The position numbers and the translations under genes are program-made. This document shows, piece by piece, positions 22,763-28,835 of a stretch of 32,000 nt of DNA (position 1 is its first letter; each line of letters starts with the position of its first letter). The DNA comes from an uncultured cyanobacterium (GTDB lineage: Bacteria > Cyanobacteriota > Cyanobacteriia > Cyanobacteriales > Microcystaceae): the NCBI GenBank assembly GCA_963807635.1, contig CAWEDJ010000069.1, positions 1 through 32,000 of the forward strand, written 5' to 3'. The notes beneath the pieces are model-generated. The model saw only the letters and a program-made list of their open reading frames with translations. It did not search any database and was not told the origin of the DNA.

Positions 22763-22864
22763 TGATTTTATGGGTTTTGATTTACAGGCGATCGCCTCTT
22801 GTTTTTCAAGACGATTTTTTTGATTAAACTTATTTTATATTTTGTTAATTTAACTGAGAGAATT

Positions 22865-23212
22865 ATGGTTATGGAGGGGGAATTAAGACAAATTCAACGC
22901 TATGTTACCGCAGAAGGTAAGATTCCATTCAGTGATTGGTTTAATAATCTTAAAGATATTCAGGCTAAATTAAAAATTACTAAGAGAATAGCAAGAGTTG
23001 AGTTGGGAAACTTGGGAGATTGTAAATCTGTAGGAGATGGTATCTTTGAGTTGAGAATAAATTATGGGCCAGGCTATAGAATTTATTTTGGTCAAATCGA
23101 TTTAGTCATTATTTTGTTATTATGTGGAGGGGATAAACAAACCCAGGCACAAGATATTCAAAAAGCAAAGAGTTATTGGCAAGATTATAAACGGAGTAAC
23201 AACCATGCCTAA
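22865..23212 (+). CDS. RelE/ParE-superfamily 'addiction module killer' toxin
   Basis: IQRYVTAEGKIPFSDWF..L.D..AK.KI..RI.RVELGNLGD.KSVGDGIFELRI.YGPGYRIYF matches the HigB-like killer family. The start is set at ATG 22865, because the ORF-track start at 22799 is a TTG with a hydrophobic junk leader. Confidence 0.7.
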   Translation: MVMEGELRQIQRYVTAEGKIPFSDWFNNLKDIQAKLKITKRIARVELGNLGDCKSVGDGIFELRINYGPGYRIYFGQIDLVIILLLCGGDKQTQAQDIQKAKSYWQDYKRSNNHA

Positions 23213-23570
23213 GAGTCTCAGTTATCATAGTCACTTAATGGAATTTTTAGCTGATCCTCAAGTGGCGGCTGCTTATCTAGAGGATATTCTACAAGATAAT
23301 GAAGGTGAACCTCGTTTATTGGCTCTAGCGTTAAATCAGGTAGCAGACGCATTAGGATCATCTCAATTATCAGCCGCAGAACTTGAGAAACAAAAGCAAA
23401 AAATTGATCAACTGCTCCAAGGCAACGGAAGTGAGGTTATCTATAACTTAGAAGAATGGTTAGGAATTTTAGGGTTAAAATTATCAGTTAAAACGATAGA
23501 AAAAGAAAATCAAGAAAAACTATTGAAAATTGGGCATGATTCTTCTATAGCTAGTCTGATTTATTCGTGA
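23205..23570 (+). CDS. Addiction module antidote protein (cognate antitoxin)
   Basis: ATG 23205 (MPKSLSYHSHLMEFLADPQVAAAYLEDIL...) overlaps the toxin stop by 8 nt. The N-terminus resembles the antidote family that pairs with killer toxins. Confidence 0.65.
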   Translation: MPKSLSYHSHLMEFLADPQVAAAYLEDILQDNEGEPRLLALALNQVADALGSSQLSAAELEKQKQKIDQLLQGNGSEVIYNLEEWLGILGLKLSVKTIEKENQEKLLKIGHDSSIASLIYS

Positions 23571-23604
23571 TATTTTTTAGTATGCGTTCTTTTCACGGGA
23601 AAAA

Positions 23605-23769
23605 TTTCAATTATTTGCCATCGGCTAGTTTAAGACTATGGCAAGAGTTTAAACCCGCAAAAAATCAACTTACAGGCTTGGTTTATCAAAAAAGAAGGGA
23701 AAAATAACGATTTTATTTTTTGGGTTTACAGGCGATCGCATCTTGACTTTCACCATTTTTGTGATTAAA
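23605..23769 (+). repeat. Degenerate duplicate of the tadA 3' end and downstream spacer
   Basis: 23669-23769 (ttacaggcttggtttatcaaaaaagaagggaaaaataa...acaggcgatcgcatcttg...gtgattaaa) aligns by eye with 22724-22828 at the real tadA end. It still reads ...LTGLVYQKRREK*, compared with ...LQAWFMKKRREK* in tadA. Confidence 0.65.
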
Positions 23770-25011
23770 TTAGTCGCTGGAAGGTAACAAAATTGGTGTG
23801 TAGGCGATCGCGTCTAATTGGGGCGATCGTTGAACAAAATCTTCATCGTCAAGGCGTTCTAAATAGGGAACAATTTCGGAATAACTTTTAACGCCGAGTA
23901 ATTCTAGTTCTTCTATCGTGATAGTTTCATCGGATAAAGAACCTCGTTTTTGTAGTAGTTGAAAAATGCGGTTTTCCATCACTTTTTCTGCTAGGAGTAG
24001 TTTGCGGTCTTTTTCTATGGTTTTAAATCCTTGTTGCAAAACTTCTGGGGTAATACGAGTTGCTCCTAAGTTAGCGGCAGTAGAGAGAACGGCATTACCT
24101 AAACGATTAAAAAAGCGGGGTTTACCAAGGGAAACACGACAGAATTCTTCGGCTGTTTCTTTTGAAAAAGGTAAAACAGAACAAGGGTCATTCACGTCAT
24201 CGCAATTATTATTAATTCGCGCACTATTAAGGTAATTAATCAGCATTTTGTAGGTGGTAGGCTGATCGAGTTCTTCTAATTTAAGTTGTAGATCAAATAA
24301 TCCCCTTTCACTGGTCAATAAATCCCCTGTTATTCCCAAAGGATGACCTGTGAGCATAAACCAGGCTTTTCCCTTTAAGATTCCCTGGGCATCGTGCATT
24401 AATTCTCGGACTCTTCTGGGGTTTTGTTTATCGAGATCATCAATGGCAATGAGGACACCATCAGGATATTTTTCGAGGGCGCGGTCTAATAAAATTTCTA
24501 GGCTAACGGTGGGATATTGGGCTTTGGTTGCAGAGACATCTTTTTCACTAAATTTGCCTACAAAAACCGCATTTGTTCCTGCTTCGGAGGTGCGTTCTTT
24601 TATCTCTTTTGCGGTTGGGATTCCCATTTGATGAAGTTGTCGTTGCGCCCAGTCATCATCAGGCAGGGCTTTCGCTAAGGCAATTAGGGCAGTCGTAGCC
24701 AGATCGAGTTCGGAAGGTAGAGAAATATAGGTTGTCAGCATTTTGGGGCGTTTACGAGTCAATACTGACAAAATTTCTAATAAAAAAGCAGTTTTGCCAA
24801 TCCCAATCCGTCCATAAATTAAAATGCGGCGACGTTCTCGGTTTTGAAAGAGATTAAAAACTTGACGGAGTTCCTTTTCTCGACCTGTAAATATACGATC
24901 TAGGGTTTTATTTTGGAGATCAGTCGGGCTTTCTGTGAAGGGAATTTCTCTGAGTCCTAAGTTGTGAATATTGTTAACGGATTGCTCGAAAATATCATCT
25001 GCTGTTGTCAT
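23770..25011 (-). CDS. P-loop ATPase (ORC/Cdc6-like or AAA_16-like) with C-terminal winged-helix-like domain
   Basis: FTGREKELRQV lies upstream of Walker A YGRIGIGKTAF, with Walker B VLIAIDDLD. The C-terminal segment IFQLLQKRGSLSDETITIEELELLGVKSYSEIVPYLERL looks wHTH-like. The start ATG overlaps the upstream gene's stop as ATGA (25008-25011). Confidence 0.7.
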   Translation of the reverse strand: MTTADDIFEQSVNNIHNLGLREIPFTESPTDLQNKTLDRIFTGREKELRQVFNLFQNRERRRILIYGRIGIGKTAFLLEILSVLTRKRPKMLTTYISLPSELDLATTALIALAKALPDDDWAQRQLHQMGIPTAKEIKERTSEAGTNAVFVGKFSEKDVSATKAQYPTVSLEILLDRALEKYPDGVLIAIDDLDKQNPRRVRELMHDAQGILKGKAWFMLTGHPLGITGDLLTSERGLFDLQLKLEELDQPTTYKMLINYLNSARINNNCDDVNDPCSVLPFSKETAEEFCRVSLGKPRFFNRLGNAVLSTAANLGATRITPEVLQQGFKTIEKDRKLLLAEKVMENRIFQLLQKRGSLSDETITIEELELLGVKSYSEIVPYLERLDDEDFVQRSPQLDAIAYTPILLPSSD

Positions 25012-26666
25012 GCTAAGACCTCACTTTTTACCTGTTCCAAGACTTGCTGAACCGATTGATAAGTATTATCCACTTTTTCGGCGGCTTCGGTTTTACCTAA
25101 TTGTTGATAAATTTCACGGGCTTGGGCTAACTCGGACATTCCTTTTTCCAGATGACCTTGGGAAACGAACACATTCCCTAAACTTTCCCGACTTTTGGCA
25201 ATGCCAGGTAAATCCTGAAGATGTTCATACAGTCGCAGGGCATCCCGATAATAGAGACGAGCATTTTCTTGATCGCTGAGGAGTTCGTAGGCATAGCCTG
25301 TTTGATAGAGAGCGTTGGCATAAACTAGGGAATTATCCCCTGTTTTGAGTTGATTAAGGCTATTAATCAAAAGTTTCAATCCTTCTTGCCAGTTGCCATC
25401 ACGGACTAAACGACTGCCTAAAATGGCTTGGGTGGCGGGGATGGCTTGCCAATATTGTTGGCGATTGTAGTGTTCGGGACTGAGATAATTTAGGGCAATT
25501 TGATAAGCGGCGAGGGATTGTTGCAGATCTTCAGGATTTTTGCTGGTTTCATAACGACGAGCTAGGGCATTACCTAAATAATATTGATTATTAATAAAGT
25601 AAGAAGTACCAGGAGCAGAAACGGTTAAAGATTGGCGATATAATTCAATGGCTTGGTCTAAATCTTGAGCATTATTATTTAAAGATGATCTTACTGTTAA
25701 AGCTCCTGCTAAATTGCCTTGAGTCCATGCCCAATCCTGGGGAAAAGCTGTAAAAGTTCTGACCTTAAGAGCTTCTTGATAACAAGCGATCGCGGTTTCT
25801 AAATTGTCAGCCCGTTCTCCTCTGATTCTGTTACGGTAAGCAATTCCCAGATTCATTTGAGTCGTTGCCCAATAGAAAGGAAAAGCAGTAAAAGTACAAA
25901 CCTTAAGAGCTTCTTGATAACAAGCGATCGCGGTTTCTAAATTGTCAGCCCGTTCTCCTCTGATTCTGTTACGGTAAGCAATTCCCAGATTCATTTGAGT
26001 CATTGCCCAATCTTTAGGAAAAGCAGTAAAAGTATAAATCTCAAGAGCATCTTGATAACAAGCGATCGCAGTTTCTAAATTGTCAGCCCGTTCCCCTTTT
26101 ATTCTTTGAGCATAAGTATTTCCCAGATTCATTTGAGTCATTGCCCAATCTTCAGGGAAAGTGGTAAAAGTATAAACTTTAAGGGCCTCTTGATAACAAG
26201 CGATCGCAGCCTCTAAATTGTCAGCCCGTTCCCCTCTTATTCTTGCCCAGTAAGCAATGCCTAAACTACTTTTTAACTTTGCCCAATCTTGCAGATAATC
26301 CTGAAAAATAAACACCGTTAAAGCCAGTTCACAACTTTTAATAGCTAACTCTTGATTAATGGCAATAGACCCTAAAGGAAATTCCTTGATATAAATATTA
26401 AAACTAAAAAGATTACCCGCAAACCAATAAGCACTTTTTCCCGTCAGAGATGATAATTTTGCTTGAGCATATTGTTCCAGAATTGTTAATAAATTCTCAT
26501 TTTTCAAACCCTCCAGATTTGCCTTCCAATACTCATAAATCGCTTCACGACTTTCCCACTCCGCAATCATCTCCAAACTCTTCACCAGTATCTCATTCTC
26601 CCCTCTTATCAAGGGGGGCTGGGGGGGATCAAAACCTTCAACAGTCATCAAAATTTTCCTCCTCAA
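25008..26666 (-). CDS. TPR protein resembling the TPR arm of cyanobacterial TPR-CHAT proteins, with no CHAT domain
   Basis: Four 46-aa units RI.GERADNLE.AIACYQ.AL..YTFT.FP.DWA.TQMNLG.AY, plus further TPRs to the C-terminus. The first ~32 codons run through a dispersed G/C-tract repeat and overlap the HicB ORF, so ATG 26570 (MIAEWESREAIYEYW) is a likelier start. Confidence 0.8.
   Translation of the reverse strand: MRRKILMTVEGFDPPQPPLIRGENEILVKSLEMIAEWESREAIYEYWKANLEGLKNENLLTILEQYAQAKLSSLTGKSAYWFAGNLFSFNIYIKEFPLGSIAINQELAIKSCELALTVFIFQDYLQDWAKLKSSLGIAYWARIRGERADNLEAAIACYQEALKVYTFTTFPEDWAMTQMNLGNTYAQRIKGERADNLETAIACYQDALEIYTFTAFPKDWAMTQMNLGIAYRNRIRGERADNLETAIACYQEALKVCTFTAFPFYWATTQMNLGIAYRNRIRGERADNLETAIACYQEALKVRTFTAFPQDWAWTQGNLAGALTVRSSLNNNAQDLDQAIELYRQSLTVSAPGTSYFINNQYYLGNALARRYETSKNPEDLQQSLAAYQIALNYLSPEHYNRQQYWQAIPATQAILGSRLVRDGNWQEGLKLLINSLNQLKTGDNSLVYANALYQTGYAYELLSDQENARLYYRDALRLYEHLQDLPGIAKSRESLGNVFVSQGHLEKGMSELAQAREIYQQLGKTEAAEKVDNTYQSVQQVLEQVKSEVLA
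25692..26243. repeat. Four tandem 138-bp coding repeats inside the TPR gene
   Basis: The block gcgatcgcggtttctaaattgtcagcccgttctcctctgattctgttacggtaagcaattcccagattcatttgagtc recurs with a 138-nt period. Confidence 0.8.
26600..26636. repeat. Short dispersed G/C-tract element, copy A
   Basis: CCCCTCTTATCAAGGGGGGCTGGGGGGGATCAAAAC closely resembles CCCCCCTTATCAAGGGTTAGGGGGGATCAAAAC at 29007-29039. It contains the small palindrome CCCTTATCAAGGG. Confidence 0.55.
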
Positions 26667-26862
26667 TTTTTGGTCGCAAACCCACCATAATTTTTAATTC
26701 ATTCAAAACTTCTAAATAGGATTGAATAGCATCCTGAATATTAGCAACGGCCTCTTCTCTCGTTTCACCCTGGGAAGCGCAACCTGGCAGACTAGGACAC
26801 CAAACCGCATAGCCTTCTTCACTTTTTTTAAGTTTAATTTGATATTGCATATTATTACCCAA
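26638..26862 (-). CDS. HicB/UPF0150-family antitoxin-like protein with no HicA partner
   Basis: YQIKLKKSEEGYAVWCPSLPGCASQGETREEAVANIQDAIQSYLE is the canonical HicB N-terminal fold signature. No HicA-like ORF is present on either side. Confidence 0.65.
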   Translation of the reverse strand: MGNNMQYQIKLKKSEEGYAVWCPSLPGCASQGETREEAVANIQDAIQSYLEVLNELKIMVGLRPKIEEENFDDC

Positions 26863-27196
26863 ATAGCCTACCTATTTTGTATTAAAGCAAAAATTTAAAC
26901 TTTTAGCAGAATCAATAAAACGCGATCGCGAATTATTTTATTTTAAAACGGGAAATCTTCTATTTTCTGTAATTGAATATAGGTTTTAGGAGTTGAATTG
27001 GCGATCGCAGAATACAAATATATTTTCAATTATTTGACTGAGCTTACTTTACAATTAACCCTTTTGCAAAGAATTTATCCCACTAATCCAGAAGGCGATC
27101 GCCAATTTTGGCTATAAATTTTGAAATCACTATTTATCCATTGCCTGTTATTTTAATCATCAAGCTTGGTAAATAACGTAGTATATCAACGCTTAA

Positions 27197-27631
27197 TTAC
27201 TCCCTCCAGGAAGTTTTTTGTAAAATCTGATTGATTTGTTGGGGGAAAGGACAATCATCAGGAAAAGAAAAAGATTGATAATCCCGATTCTCTCTTAAGC
27301 TTTTGATGGCTTTAGCATAACAATCGAGAAAAATTTCTTCCCAATAGTGTTTAAGGCTGGGGGAATCTTCCAATAAATCCTGAAGTTCTCGCTGGCTACG
27401 ACGAATTGTTTCTGTCCAACCTCGATAGTCCTGAGCATAGGTAGAGTAACAAAGTTTGAGACAATGTTCTAGCATGGTAGTCAGTCGATTGCGGAGTTCT
27501 CGTCTTTGACTTCTGCCCAAGCTTTCAATTTCCTCAATTAAGTTTTCCCAGTCAACACTATCATAATTTTGTTTTTTTAATAGATCAATCGTTCCTTCTA
27601 GCCAAAGGAGATAATCGTTTGTTGCAAGCAT
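27197..27631 (-). CDS. DUF29 family protein
   Basis: DYLLWLEGTIDLLKKQNYDSVDWENLIEEIESLGRSQRRELRNRL..MLEHCLKL is the DUF29 signature. The start is set at ATG 27631; the ORF-track start at 27733 adds 34 non-conserved residues. Confidence 0.7.
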   Translation of the reverse strand: MLATNDYLLWLEGTIDLLKKQNYDSVDWENLIEEIESLGRSQRRELRNRLTTMLEHCLKLCYSTYAQDYRGWTETIRRSQRELQDLLEDSPSLKHYWEEIFLDCYAKAIKSLRENRDYQSFSFPDDCPFPQQINQILQKTSWRE

Positions 27632-27798
27632 AGGACTTGAGAGAATTTCTTTTTTTCCTATTCTATCCCCTAAAAACTGGTTTGAAGAAAGCGATCGCAT
27701 CTTTTTAAGTTCAGAAAATATTTTTAAAATCAATCAAATCCATAAAAAAAAGTGGGCCAGATAGCCCGCCCATCATTATCAATTCGGATAAATGAAAT

Positions 27799-28835
27799 CT
27801 ATTTAAGTTGAATAACTTTAGGAGCTTCAAATAAATGTACCGTATCGACAAACCGTGCTGTTTTTGATTGGGTAGAAATAACTAAACTTTGAGTCCGCGC
27901 ACCACCGTGGAAGAAGCGTACACCTTCCATCAAGGTTCCAGGCGTAATCCCGCAAGCCGCGAATAAAACGGTTTCACCACTAGCCAATTCTTCACACTCA
28001 TAGACGCGATCGCCATCGGTAATTCCCATCTCGCCAAGACGTTTGAGGTTACCTTCACGACTTTCACCGATTAAGCCCGTTTGGACGACAGCAGGATCAT
28101 AAACCAATTGACCCTGGAAGTGACCACCCAAACAACGCATCGCTGCCGCCGAAATGACTCCTTCAGGAGCCGCACCAATGCCCATCAGACAATGAATATT
28201 GGTTCCAGAGAAAGCACAGGAAATGGCGGCAGAAACATCACCATCACTGATCAAACGAACTCGCGCACCCGCATCACGGATTTCTTGAATTAATTCTTTG
28301 TGACGGGGACGATCCATGACAACGACAACTAATTCTTCAACGGCGCGACCCAAACACTCGCCCAAAATTTTAAGATTTTCGGTAGCCGATTTATTAATAT
28401 CAACTTTACCTTTAGCGGCTGGGGGAGCGGCTAATTTTTTCATATAAAAGTCAGGAGCGGCAAATAGGCCACCTTTTTCGGAAATTGCTAAAACGGCCAT
28501 CGATCCATTTTGTCCATAGGCGACTAAGTTAGTACCTTCACAGGGATCAACCGCAATATCGATTTCAACTAATTCGTCAGGATTACAAAATGCACCTGCG
28601 TTTCCTGGGTACAAATACCTACTTCTTCACCGATGTAGAGCATGGGAGCTTCATCCCGTTCTCCTTCTCCGATGACGATGCGCCCTCTCATGTGGATTTT
28701 GTTCATCCGTTCCCGCATGGCATCAACGGCAACCTGGTCAGCGATGTCTTTTTCGCCTTTACCCATCCATTTAGAAGAGGCGATCGCGGCCTGTTCAACA
28801 ACTTCAATAATTTCTAAACCGAGCGTATTTTCCAC
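27799..28835 (-). pseudogene. glpX: Class II fructose-1,6-/sedoheptulose-1,7-bisphosphatase, one-base frameshift as assembled
   Basis: ORFs 28569..28835 and 27799..28614 together match the Synechocystis dual FBP/SBPase from memory ([20 protein letters not shown]...[15 protein letters not shown] | [45 protein letters not shown]...). The break is at 28601-28603, where the coding strand has GAAACG and GAAAACG would restore the frame. Confidence 0.9.

What the first reader, a model, noticed from the sequence alone, without database searches (positions are those of the whole stretch)
23770..26862. HicB-like / CHAT-less TPR / ATPase-wHTH operon: candidate split, reverse-ordered STAND-type system with no recognisable effector
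There are three same-strand genes. The TPR gene's stop and the ATPase start overlap as ATGA (25008-25011), which implies translational coupling. The TPR protein has the N-terminal region and 46-aa GERADNLE.AIACYQ.AL repeats that I associate with cyanobacterial TPR-CHAT proteins. It ends without a CHAT protease domain. A 413-aa P-loop NTPase follows instead (FTGRE.EL, GRIGIGKT, LIAIDDLD), with a wHTH-like C-terminus. Classical STAND proteins place the NTPase before the repeats in a single chain, whereas here the order is reversed and split. No nuclease, protease, TIR or pore-forming module is visible. The locus lies in an accessory island next to TA modules, so a sensor (TPR) plus switch (ATPase) with a DNA-binding output, or an unrecognised effector, is plausible. 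I do not recognise this pair as a named defence system.
Basis: partly seen in the sequence, partly recalled or inferred. Interest (0 to 1): 0.72.

Follow-up and report, generated by a model that had tools for sequence, protein, structure and literature searches.

The report
Conserved TPR plus AAA+ ATPase pair
Two overlapping genes, one for a repeat-rich scaffold protein and one for an ATP-driven switch, form a unit conserved across many cyanobacteria whose relatives carry cell-killing enzyme domains, so it is probably the weapon-less core of an undescribed immune or cell-death switch; the small HicB-like gene next to it is only a neighbour.

Summary
Three minus-strand genes lie at 23770-26862, the TPR stop and ATPase start share ATGA, and the TPR gene holds a 138-bp (46-aa) tandem repeat.

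The functional unit is two genes, not three. In 74 of 78 related loci with upstream sequence, a TPR gene with the same C-terminal module ends at the ATPase start. 57 of the 74 have the ATGA overlap. This holds in cyanobacteria and Chloroflexota. No third gene is conserved. The HicB-like gene belongs to a lineage-specific toxin-antitoxin hotspot.

- **TPR protein:** full length, not a CHAT-less relic.
- **ATPase:** a Cdc6/Orc1-fold AAA+ protein (AAA_16/ATPase_2), not an NB-ARC/NACHT NOD. Its winged helix is strongly acidic, so DNA binding is unlikely.
- **"Split STAND":** disfavoured, because some TPR partners carry their own NB-ARC.
- **Conflict-system reading:** supported. A strain with a 98%-identical ATPase has a caspase fused to the TPR protein. 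Other partners carry CHAT, NB-ARC or TIR. Distant ATPase relatives carry Mrr, TIR or CHAT.
- **Against it:** strong purifying selection, housekeeping flanks, and no match in PADLOC, phages or plasmids.

Function remains inferred. I rate it an undescribed variant of NTPase-plus-TPR conflict systems, of moderate to high interest.

The parts
23770..25011 (-). AAA+ ATPase gene (413 aa): conserved acidic N-terminal peptide, AAA+ base, lid and C-terminal winged helix
   Evidence: Pfam AAA_16 and ATPase_2 pass their cut-offs. The AlphaFold model (pLDDT 75.6) is closest to archaeal Cdc6/Orc1 (2qby, 1fnn, 2v1u; E = 2e-9 to 6e-8). Full-length homologs share 62-97% identity in many cyanobacteria. dN/dS is 0.07-0.13.
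24790..24813 (-). Walker A motif GRIGIGKT (aa 67-74)
   Evidence: Read from the translation. G67, G70, I71, G72 and K73 are invariant in 44 homologs.
24430..24453 (-). Walker B motif LIAIDDLD (aa 187-194)
   Evidence: I188, I190, D191, D192, L193 and D194 are invariant. Also invariant: R236, a putative arginine finger in ERGLFD, and P298-R299, a putative sensor 2 in GKPR. The roles of these residues are inferred from motif position.
23812..23994 (-). C-terminal winged-helix domain (aa 340-400), strongly acidic
   Evidence: The model shows helices 322-356, 366-372 and 381-393. The equivalent region of the ~420-aa relatives P0394, P0395 and P0397 passes Pfam wHTH thresholds. Net charge is -7 in the window and -8.3 on average in the family, against +5 to +6 in those relatives.
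25008..25011 (-). ATGA overlap of the TPR stop and the ATPase start (translational coupling)
   Evidence: Read from the sequence. The same 4-nt overlap occurs in 57 of 74 related loci, and 70 of 74 have genes overlapping or at most 2 nt apart.
25008..26648 (-). TPR protein gene (546 aa): an all-alpha TPR solenoid
   Evidence: TPR_12 and TPR_10 hits. P0125 is 100% identical over 546 aa. The AlphaFold model has pLDDT 89.9 and is helical from aa 17 to 545, with no catalytic domain. Foldseek finds OGT and LGN TPR superhelices.
25011..25697 (-). Conserved C-terminal TPR module (aa 318-546), the signature that co-occurs with the ATPase and the candidate ATPase-docking region
   Evidence: It lies directly upstream of the ATPase in 74 loci. 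A profile of this module scores 85-120 bits at the extreme C-terminus of all clade-B partners, whatever their N-terminal architecture. Non-partner TPR proteins, including TPR-CHAT, score 23 bits or less or do not hit. It is 94% identical to L085, with dN/dS 0.13.
25719..26243 (-). Array of 46-aa (138-bp) near-identical TPR-type repeats: the variable region
   Evidence: TRF reports period 138, 3.8 copies and 88% matches. Orthologs have 2-7 units spaced exactly 46 aa apart. Units within one protein are 78% identical, against 62% between proteins. Variation concentrates at about 11 positions. dN/dS is 0.30-0.45.
26364..26648 (-). N-terminal helical region of the TPR protein (aa 1-95), which has the family-typical start; aa 1-15 are disordered
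   Evidence: MTVEGFDPPQPPLIRGEN matches the family consensus MGxKGFGQPxPPTR. This is the position where L085 carries a caspase domain instead. It is fast-evolving and recombinant: dS = 2.0 against L085.
26658..26664 (-). GAGGAGG Shine-Dalgarno sequence, 9 nt upstream of the TPR ATG and inside the end of the HicB-like ORF
   Evidence: Read from the sequence.
26638..26850 (-). HicB-like (UPF0150-type) small gene of 70 aa: a neighbour probably co-transcribed here, but not a component of the conserved module
   Evidence: PF15919, E = 4.6e-10, matching the N-terminal half of the profile only. No HicA is adjacent. It is absent beside the pair in the other 80 loci. Its 3' half is present upstream of the caspase-TPR gene in L085. 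L006 has a different HicB/HicA pair in the same slot.

Best explanation
The unit is a self-contained two-gene module. It encodes a TPR solenoid protein and, translationally coupled to it, a Cdc6/Orc1-fold AAA+ ATPase.

Shown:
- The two genes are co-inherited across cyanobacteria and Chloroflexota, usually with an ATGA overlap.
- The co-conserved parts are the ATPase and the last ~130-230 aa of the TPR protein.
- The TPR N-terminus and the 46-aa repeat array vary by recombination and by repeat gain and loss.
- Relatives of either partner carry caspase, CHAT, TIR, Mrr or NB-ARC domains.

Inferred:
- The two proteins form a complex through the C-terminal TPR module.
- The variable TPR array binds a peptide or protein ligand.
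- The ATPase acts as an ATP-dependent assembly or threshold switch, like the AAA+/co-chaperone pairs of other conflict systems. It is not the missing NOD of a split STAND protein.
- In effector-bearing versions, activation releases a protease, nuclease or NADase.

The window copy is the effector-less core form that is typical of cyanobacteria. Its output is unknown. It most likely acts through protein-protein interactions, possibly on effectors encoded elsewhere, and not through DNA binding. The HicB-like gene is the remnant of a neighbouring toxin-antitoxin cassette.
For: - Linkage: the TPR C-terminal module lies directly upstream of the ATPase in 74 of 78 loci with upstream sequence, including 6 Chloroflexota loci. 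57 of the 74 have the ATGA overlap.
- No third gene: only these two genes recur among the flanks of 80 loci.
- Specific signature: the C-terminal module profile scores 85-120 bits in all clade-B partners and 23 bits or less, or nothing, in non-partner TPR proteins.
- Effectors on the TPR partner: caspase (Peptidase_C14, E = 8.7e-20) in L085, whose ATPase is 98% identical to the window's; CHAT+AAA_16 (L077), NB-ARC (L083, L084) and CpXC (L067); CHAT+NACHT/AAA_16 (L086) and TIR (L087).
- Effectors on ATPase relatives: Mrr in 8, TIR in 2 to 3, CHAT in 2.
- Competent ATPase: the Walker A, Walker B, ERG and GKPR motifs are invariant, and the fold is AAA+ base, lid and winged helix.
- Peptide-binding scaffold: the TPR model is a superhelix of the OGT/LGN type.
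- Mosaic divergence: against L085, dS is 0.17-0.23 in the ATPase and TPR C-terminus but 0.57-2.0 in the repeats and N-terminus.
- Repeat dynamics: concerted evolution and variable copy number.
- Patchy distribution with cross-phylum copies at 50% identity.
Against: - No experiment bears on function, and no complex was modelled.
- The cyanobacterial core clade lacks any effector. Only 1 of the 120 listed TPR orthologs carries an N-terminal effector domain, the caspase of P0142; the one listed CHAT protein, P0232, shares only the repeats.
- The ATPase is under strong purifying selection (dN/dS 0.07-0.13) and keeps 62-73% identity across orders. That is unusual for immune genes.
- The flanks are heterogeneous housekeeping genes with no defence-island enrichment.
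- There are no PADLOC hits and no copies on plasmids or phages.
- The partners of the most distant effector-fused ATPases (L086, L087) are TPR proteins, but homology of their C-terminal module to the window's is weak (17 and 8 bits).
- One ~420-aa relative (L088) has no TPR partner.
- The repeats show no positive selection overall (dN/dS below 1).
Confidence: 0.5

Rival explanations
1. This is a housekeeping or regulatory pair with no immune role. The AAA+ ATPase and its TPR adaptor would remodel or assemble a cellular complex, by analogy with ExeA/MshM-type ATPases that work with partner proteins. The effector fusions in relatives would be secondary recruitments of a generic switch.
For: - Strong purifying selection on the ATPase (dN/dS 0.07-0.13).
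- 62-73% identity across cyanobacterial orders.
- Chromosomal, housekeeping-type flanks.
- No effector in the core clade.
- No plasmid or phage copies.
- The profile of distant relatives also reaches a protein annotated as general secretion pathway protein A (P0406, E = 2.4e-7).
- The N-terminal motif LGLxEIPF followed by FxGRxxE resembles the ExeA/MshM N-terminus. This last point is from memory and was not tested.
Against: - The distribution is patchy: only 130 of 185,579 species genomes matched the two peptide patterns.
- Synteny is not conserved.
- Chloroflexota copies are as similar as some cyanobacterial ones, which indicates horizontal transfer.
- Death and immune domains are fused repeatedly to both partners.
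- The TPR sensor half is a recombination mosaic with variable repeat number.
Confidence: 0.3
2. One reading: a three-gene HicB-TPR-ATPase operon that is a split, reverse-ordered STAND protein, in which the ATPase is the NOD of the TPR sensor and its wHTH provides a DNA-binding output.
For: - The three genes are on one strand with overlapping ends in the window.
- AAA_16 and ATPase_2 are STAND-allied families, and nSTAND6 gives a weak hit (E = 0.011).
- A C-terminal winged helix is present.
- The same HicB-like gene is also upstream in strain L085.
Against: - HicB is absent beside the pair in all other loci. There is no HicA. L006 has a different TA cassette in the same slot.
- No STAND protein appears among the top 50 fold matches, and NB-ARC, NACHT and nSTAND are below threshold.
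- Partners in L083, L084, L077 and L086 already contain their own NB-ARC, NACHT or AAA_16 NTPase and still keep the downstream ATPase.
- The winged helix is strongly acidic.
Confidence: 0.05
3. The locus is a decayed relic: a truncated TPR-CHAT or TPR-caspase gene next to an unrelated ATPase, with no joint function.
For: - The 46-aa repeats are 55% identical to those of a TPR-CHAT protein (P0232).
- A close strain has a caspase-TPR fusion, and the window lacks that ~1-kb segment.
Against: - The window protein has the family-typical N-terminus and full length, like more than 100 orthologs.
- In TPR-CHAT proteins the CHAT domain is C-terminal and the C-terminal module is absent.
- The pair is conserved and coupled in 74 loci.
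- Both genes are under purifying selection.
Confidence: 0.02
4. The ATPase belongs to a characterised machine, such as a BREX BrxC/PglY-type, KAP/PifA-type or transposition (TniB/TnsC/IstB) ATPase, and the TPR gene is incidental.
For: - TnsC appears among the fold matches.
- KAP_NTPase scores 19.0 bits against a cut-off of 20.
- Relatives give weak BrxC_BrxD and PifA hits confined to the P-loop region.
Against: - No BREX genes, transposase or TniQ appear among the conserved neighbours.
- The hits cover only the first ~60 aa around the P-loop.
- There is no transmembrane insert: the highest 19-residue hydropathy is 1.43.
- TIGR02928 and the other NCBIfam models score far below their cut-offs.
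Confidence: 0.03

Closest known systems
STAND/NLR-like ATPases with TPR sensors (bacterial Avs/AVAST, Apaf-1-like caspase-NB-ARC-TPR proteins, MalT/AfsR-type regulators)
   Same: Both combine a P-loop NTPase of the Cdc6/Orc-STAND lineage with a TPR array. Death and immune effectors (caspase, CHAT, TIR, Mrr) are swapped modularly in relatives. Both are enriched in cyanobacteria and Chloroflexota.
   Different: Here the NTPase and the TPR are separate proteins, with the TPR gene first. The ATPase does not match NB-ARC, NACHT or nSTAND profiles, and its fold is nearer Cdc6/Orc1, RuvB and RFC. Some partners already contain a full NB-ARC, so this ATPase is an additional component. The core clade has no effector.
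AAA+ chaperone plus peptide-binding co-chaperone 'threshold' pairs in conflict systems (MoxR-vWA ternary systems; TRIP13/Pch2-HORMA in CBASS), as described in PMC7159879
   Same: Both pair an AAA+ ATPase with a peptide- or protein-binding adaptor encoded by the adjacent gene. The core is constant and the effectors are variable, fused or linked. Both occur mainly in multicellular bacteria.
   Different: The ATPase clade differs (Cdc6/Orc1-like AAA_16, not MoxR or TRIP13), and the adaptor is TPR, not vWA or HORMA. This pair is not described in that paper. The resemblance is functional only and has not been demonstrated.
Archaeal Cdc6/Orc1 initiators
   Same: They are the best structural matches for the three-domain layout of AAA+ base, lid and winged helix. 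The motif order matches too: Walker A, Walker B, ERG, and a sensor-2-like GKPR.
   Different: Sequence identity is 14-16%. TIGR02928 scores 20.6 bits against a cut-off of 181.3. The winged helix is acidic, not DNA-binding. The obligate partner is a TPR protein.
Cyanobacterial TPR-CHAT and orthocaspase (metacaspase-like) proteins
   Same: They share the same 46-aa GERADNLE...AIAAY repeat type, at 55% identity. One close ortholog is itself fused to a caspase domain.
   Different: The window protein has no protease domain. In TPR-CHAT proteins the CHAT domain is C-terminal, and the ATPase-associated C-terminal module is absent.
HicAB toxin-antitoxin systems
   Same: The upstream 70-aa gene has the HicB/UPF0150 fold domain.
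   Different: It has no HicA toxin and no DNA-binding domain, and its linkage to the pair is not conserved. It is a neighbouring cassette remnant.

Membership tests
STAND / NLR-type NTPase (NB-ARC, NACHT, nSTAND) | P-loop NTPase with intact Walker A and Walker B motifs | tested here: met
   GRIGIGKT and LIAIDDLD are invariant in 44 homologs.
STAND / NLR-type NTPase (NB-ARC, NACHT, nSTAND) | Above-threshold match to an NB-ARC, NACHT or nSTAND profile | tested here: not met
   NACHT scores 13.4 bits (cut-off 26.7) and nSTAND6 16.2 bits (cut-off 27.7). NB-ARC gives no hit.
STAND / NLR-type NTPase (NB-ARC, NACHT, nSTAND) | Fold closest to STAND NOD modules (NBD-HD1-WHD) | tested here: not met
   The top 50 Foldseek PDB matches are Cdc6/Orc1, RuvB, RFC, ORC, TnsC, HslU and proteasome Rpt subunits. 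None is a STAND protein.
STAND / NLR-type NTPase (NB-ARC, NACHT, nSTAND) | NTPase followed by the repeat sensor in one polypeptide; for a 'split' version, the ATPase should supply the only NOD | tested here: not met
   The genes are separate, with the TPR gene first. The partners in L083, L084, L077 and L086 carry their own NB-ARC, NACHT or AAA_16 domain and still keep the downstream ATPase.
Avs/AVAST or any PADLOC / NCBIfam defence family | Significant match to a curated defence-system model | tested here: not met
   The best PADLOC hit is PDC-S27 at E = 0.022. NCBIfam DS41_1 scores 15.1 bits against a cut-off of 370. PADLOC is the 2023 version; newer catalogues were not available.
Cdc6/Orc1 replication initiators | AAA+ base, lid and winged-helix architecture | tested here: met
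   Best fold matches are 2qby, 1fnn and 2v1u (E = 2e-9 to 6e-8; TM-score 0.48-0.55).
Cdc6/Orc1 replication initiators | Family-level sequence match and a DNA-binding (basic) winged helix | tested here: not met
   TIGR02928 scores 20.6 bits against a cut-off of 181.3. The winged helix has net charge -7, with a family range of -10 to -5.
HicAB toxin-antitoxin | HicB antitoxin fold domain | tested here: met
   PF15919, E = 4.6e-10, aa 8-57.
HicAB toxin-antitoxin | Adjacent HicA toxin gene, and a DNA-binding domain on HicB | tested here: not met
   No HicA-size ORF lies in 26840-27210. The protein is only 70 aa and matches profile positions 2-52 of 123.
TPR-CHAT proteins | CHAT protease domain, and homology beyond the repeats | tested here: not met
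   The window protein gives no CHAT hit. Only the 46-aa repeats align with P0232. P0232 does not hit the C-terminal module profile.
BREX BrxC/PglY, KAP/PifA or transposition (TniB/TnsC/IstB) ATPases | Full-length family match, the cognate partner genes, and (for KAP) transmembrane helices inserted in the NTPase domain | tested here: not met
   KAP_NTPase scores 19.0 bits against a cut-off of 20, AAA_22 scores 16.6 against 27, and BrxC_BrxD gives no hit. No such partner genes appear among the conserved or nearest neighbours. No hydrophobic insert is present.
TPR-AAA+ two-gene module (family delineated here) | The ATPase ortholog is preceded on the same strand by a TPR gene ending in the conserved C-terminal module, with overlapping or abutting stop and start codons | tested here: met
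   The window has the ATGA overlap. 74 of 78 loci have the module upstream. 57 of 74 have ATGA. The module profile is specific.
TPR-AAA+ two-gene module (family delineated here) | Physical complex between the two proteins, and ATP-dependent switching | not testable with these tools
   No multimer prediction or biochemistry was available.

The most novel reading that the evidence does not exclude
The pair is the effector-less core of an undescribed, horizontally mobile TPR-AAA+ immune or cell-death switch family. In cyanobacteria it would act in trans: the variable 46-aa TPR array would sense a phage or stress ligand, and the ATPase would then license stand-alone TPR-CHAT or orthocaspase proteins that share the same repeat type. 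That would make it a master regulator of cyanobacterial programmed cell death, not a self-contained defence gene.
Probability: 0.15. Interest if true: 0.8.

Novelty: new variant of a known kind. Interest (0 to 1): 0.6.

Why it matters
If the inference holds, this is a new architecture for NLR-like signalling in bacteria. A constant core, made of a TPR C-terminal module and a Cdc6-fold AAA+ ATPase, sits on two translationally coupled genes. Different lineages attach caspase, CHAT, TIR, Mrr or even a whole NB-ARC NLR to that core.

It would add a component to the link between bacterial conflict systems and eukaryotic apoptosis and innate immunity.

It would also give a handle on the many orphan TPR-CHAT and orthocaspase genes of bloom-forming cyanobacteria such as Microcystis and Snowella, where regulated cell death and phage resistance matter ecologically.

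The natural pair of near-identical strains, with and without the caspase domain (L085 versus the window), is a ready-made experimental contrast.

If instead it proves to be a housekeeping chaperone pair, it is still a widely conserved cyanobacterial gene pair with no assigned function.

Tried and rejected
- **Named defence systems:** PADLOC and NCBIfam scans of all three proteins found none.
- **Solved structures by sequence:** the PDB sequence profile search gave only marginal RuvB and Cdc6 hits.
- **Promoters and terminators:** the scan found no more sites than in shuffled sequence, 13 against 9.1 ± 3.5, so it gives no operon evidence.
- **Third conserved gene or effector:** flank clustering found none. 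The recurring extra clusters were antisense ORFs inside the two genes.
- **Defence-island context:** the 123 nearest neighbours are heterogeneous housekeeping genes. The only recurrent hit was Uma2/PDC-S03 in 5.
- **Plasmid or phage carriage:** no match.
- **Literature:** five searches and three papers (PMC7159879, PMC8195603, 10.64898/2026.01.04.697583) contain no description of this pair. The library is incomplete, so this is not proof of absence.
- **Exact look-up of the window's TPR protein:** not on record.
- **Last homolog search:** the profile search with distant relatives was limited by the word index to 23 hits.
- **Same C-terminal module in the far-distant pairs:** rejected as a claim, because L086 and L087 score only 17 and 8 bits.
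- **Positive selection on the repeats:** not supported, since dN/dS is 0.30-0.45.

Full report
**1. The observation**

Three ORFs lie on the minus strand between 23770 and 26862.
- **ATPase (23770-25011, 413 aa).** It contains IFTGREKEL, Walker A GRIGIGKT (aa 67-74) and Walker B LIAIDDLD (aa 187-194). It passes the Pfam cut-offs for AAA_16 and ATPase_2.
- **TPR gene.** It gives strong TPR_12 and TPR_10 hits and no CHAT hit. At the DNA level it holds a tandem repeat at 25719-26243 with period 138 bp, 3.8 copies and 88% matches.
- **Junction.** The TPR stop and ATPase start share ATGA at 25008-25011.
- **HicB-like ORF.** It matches PF15919 at E = 4.6e-10.

Two corrections apply.
- The TPR gene most likely starts at ATG 26648, 9 nt after a GAGGAGG Shine-Dalgarno sequence. 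That gives 546 aa, identical in length and sequence to database protein P0125.
- The HicB-like gene probably starts at ATG 26850 (70 aa), and its stop overlaps the TPR start by 11 nt.

No HicA-size ORF is adjacent.

The window probably comes from a Snowella-like cyanobacterium. Its ATPase is 95% identical to those of two Snowella MAGs, and its DNA is 90-94% identical and syntenic with L005 across the neighbouring genes, which I read by eye as argF and tadA.

**2. The functional unit is two genes**

The ATPase has more than 440 homologs. The top 120 are full length and 65-97% identical, from many cyanobacterial genera.

A scan of one genome per species found 130 genomes, of which I fetched 80 loci. 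They include Snowella, Microcystis, Nodosilinea, Phormidesmis, Spirulina, Pseudanabaena, Acaryochloris, Moorena and Prochloron, plus six Chloroflexota/Anaerolineae at about 50% identity.
- In 74 of the 78 loci with upstream sequence, the conserved C-terminal part of the TPR protein lies directly upstream on the same strand and ends at the ATPase start.
- 57 of those 74 have the same ATGA overlap. 70 of 74 overlap or lie within 2 nt.
- Clustering all flanking ORFs recovered only these two genes. The other recurrent clusters were antisense ORFs inside them.
- The 123 nearest neighbours are heterogeneous and mostly housekeeping: GroEL, tRNA synthetases, UvrA, hydrolases and dehydrogenases. There is no defence-island enrichment.
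- The ATPase has no match in the plasmid or phage collections.

**3. The HicB-like gene is a neighbour**

It was found beside the pair in none of the other loci. The only hits were an unrelated opposite-strand gene downstream in Microcystis.

Its 3' half is present upstream of the TPR gene in the closely related contig L085. In Snowella L006 the same slot holds XisI plus a complete UPF0150(HicB-like)/HicA pair. On the other side of the module, the window's RelE/ParE-antidote cassette (~22796-23669) is absent from L005 at the same junction.

The module therefore sits in a local toxin-antitoxin hotspot. The window's HicB-like gene looks like a cassette remnant that is probably co-transcribed with the pair only because of its position.

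**4. The TPR protein**

Orthologs from Nodosilinea, Phormidesmis and Cyanosarcina are 52-53% identical. They share a very conserved C-terminal ~230 aa, a variable number of 46-aa repeats, and the same kind of N-terminus: MGxKGFGQPxPPTR in the family, MTVEGFDPPQPPLIRGEN in the window. The window protein is therefore full length, not a relic.

The AlphaFold model is confident (pLDDT 89.9). It shows one continuous all-alpha solenoid from aa 17 to 545, with no catalytic domain. It resembles peptide-binding TPR superhelices such as those of OGT and LGN.

A TPR-CHAT protein (P0232) shares only the repeats (55% identity). Its CHAT domain is C-terminal.

A profile of the C-terminal module (aa 318-546) scores 85-120 bits at the extreme C-terminus of every clade-B partner. 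It scores 23 bits or less, or nothing, in TPR proteins that are not ATPase partners, including P0232. This module is the specific signature of the pairing, and I infer that it is the ATPase-docking surface.

The repeats show concerted evolution. Units are 78% identical within a protein and 62% between proteins. Copy number varies from 2 to 7 exact-period units. Variation concentrates at about 11 positions.

**5. The ATPase**

The model (pLDDT 75.6) has an AAA+ base, a lid and a C-terminal winged helix. A disordered insert spans aa 139-168.
- **Fold.** The best matches are archaeal Cdc6/Orc1 (2qby, 1fnn, 2v1u), followed by RuvB, RFC, ORC and TnsC. No STAND protein is in the top 50.
- **Profiles.** NB-ARC, NACHT and nSTAND are below threshold. 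TIGR02928 is far below its cut-off.
- **Catalytic motifs.** The Walker A and B motifs, ERG (R236) and GKPR (R299) are invariant, so the enzyme is probably active. The assignment of R236 as arginine finger and R299 as sensor 2 is inferred from motif position.
- **Winged helix.** In unpaired ~420-aa relatives the equivalent domain passes Pfam wHTH thresholds and is basic, at +5 to +6. In the window's clade it is strongly acidic: -7 in the window, with a family mean of -8.3 and a range of -10 to -5. Direct DNA binding is therefore unlikely.
- **Membrane insertion.** There is no hydrophobic insert, which argues against a KAP-type membrane NTPase.

**6. Evidence for a conflict-system role**

*Effectors on the TPR partner*
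- Contig L085 encodes an ATPase 98% identical to the window's. It is preceded, with the same 4-nt overlap, by a TPR ortholog (78% identity) that has an N-terminal Peptidase_C14 caspase domain (E = 8.7e-20).
- In the 47-51% identity clade, the partner carries CHAT+AAA_16 (L077), NB-ARC (L083, L084) or a CpXC zinc ribbon (L067).

*Effectors on ATPase relatives*
- Distant relatives at 27-31% identity carry C-terminal Mrr nuclease, TIR or CHAT domains. Of 15 long relatives scanned, 11 have such a domain. Two more came from the profile search.
- Their upstream genes are CHAT+NACHT/AAA_16+TPR in L086 and TIR+TPR in L087, the latter with a 4-nt overlap.
- Homology of those partners' C-termini to the window's module is weak.
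- One ~420-aa relative, in L088, has no TPR partner and is followed by a methylase gene.

*Consequence for the 'split STAND' idea*
- Some partners already contain a complete NB-ARC and still keep the downstream ATPase. The ATPase is therefore better seen as an additional switch or chaperone-like component than as the missing NOD.

**7. Evolutionary pattern**
- dN/dS is 0.07-0.13 for the ATPase, 0.13-0.29 for the TPR C-terminus, 0.30-0.45 for the repeats and 0.24-0.40 for the N-terminus.
- Between the window and L085, dS is about 0.2 in the ATPase and TPR C-terminus. It rises to 0.57 in the repeats and 2.0 in the N-terminus. The sensor half has been exchanged by recombination while the core stayed put.
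- Identity does not track taxonomy. The window's ATPase is 65-66% identical to that of Microcystis but 70-71% identical to those of Phormidesmis and Acaryochloridaceae. Chloroflexota copies are as close as those of Moorena. This indicates horizontal transfer.

**8. Mechanism (inferred)**

The two proteins are made in a fixed ratio through translational coupling and form a complex through the C-terminal TPR module. The variable N-terminal region and repeat array bind a protein or peptide ligand. ATP binding or hydrolysis by the AAA+ partner gates assembly or release. In effector-bearing versions this activates a protease, nuclease or NADase.

The window's version has no effector. Its output is unknown and is probably a protein-protein interaction. 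I put 0.5 on this conflict-type reading and 0.3 on a non-immune chaperone or regulatory role. The main arguments for the latter are the strong purifying selection, the housekeeping flanks and the lack of any effector in the core clade.

**9. Novelty**

No PADLOC (2023) or NCBIfam (2026) model matches. No description was found in the searched literature, including the Aravind-lab conflict-system papers and a 2026 STAND survey.

I classify the module as a new variant of the known NTPase-plus-TPR conflict-system kind, with interest 0.6.

Noticed in passing
window 22799-23570 (+): A RelE/ParE-type toxin gene (TIGR02683, E = 1e-38) is followed by a weak HI1420-type antidote gene. This ~875-bp cassette (22796-23669) is missing at the same tadA/ATPase junction in Snowella L005, so it is a recent insertion or deletion.
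   Followed up: partly
window 27799-28835 (-): A gene that looks by eye like a class II fructose/sedoheptulose bisphosphatase (GlpX-like) is split into two overlapping ORFs: 28569-28835 (88 aa, N-terminal part) and 27799-28614 (271 aa). This suggests a frameshift or a sequencing error near 28570-28614.
   Followed up: no
window 27197-27733 (-): A DUF29 protein (PF01724, E = 3.5e-41) lies just upstream of the HicB-like gene. It is another small accessory gene typical of cyanobacteria.
   Followed up: no
window 26862-27197: The AT-rich intergenic region upstream of the HicB-like gene holds three HIP1 palindromes (GCGATCGC), a cyanobacterial hallmark. The only promoter-like match there (27004-26976, minus strand) is no better than chance.
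   Followed up: partly
L006 244-1128: In a Snowella MAG, the slot upstream of the TPR gene holds XisI, a UPF0150/HicB-like gene and a HicA toxin gene. This is a different TA cassette from the window's lone HicB-like gene.
   Followed up: yes
L085 125-1148 versus window 26540-26637: Two near-identical strains differ by a ~1-kb segment that encodes a caspase domain at the 5' end of the TPR gene. The window has 98 bp in its place, encoding the family-typical N-terminus.
   Followed up: yes
protein P0339 (representative library): A 275-aa ORF joins the TPR C-terminal module to the first 52 aa of the ATPase in one frame. It could be a read-through or frameshift at the ATGA junction, or an assembly artefact.
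   Followed up: no
L039 and L057: In two genomes the ATPase is full length but solitary. The upstream gene is divergent: priA in L039 and an unknown 499-aa gene in L057. A TPR ortholog from Adonisia turfae (P0205), the species of L057, is in the database, and its genomic location was not checked.
   Followed up: partly
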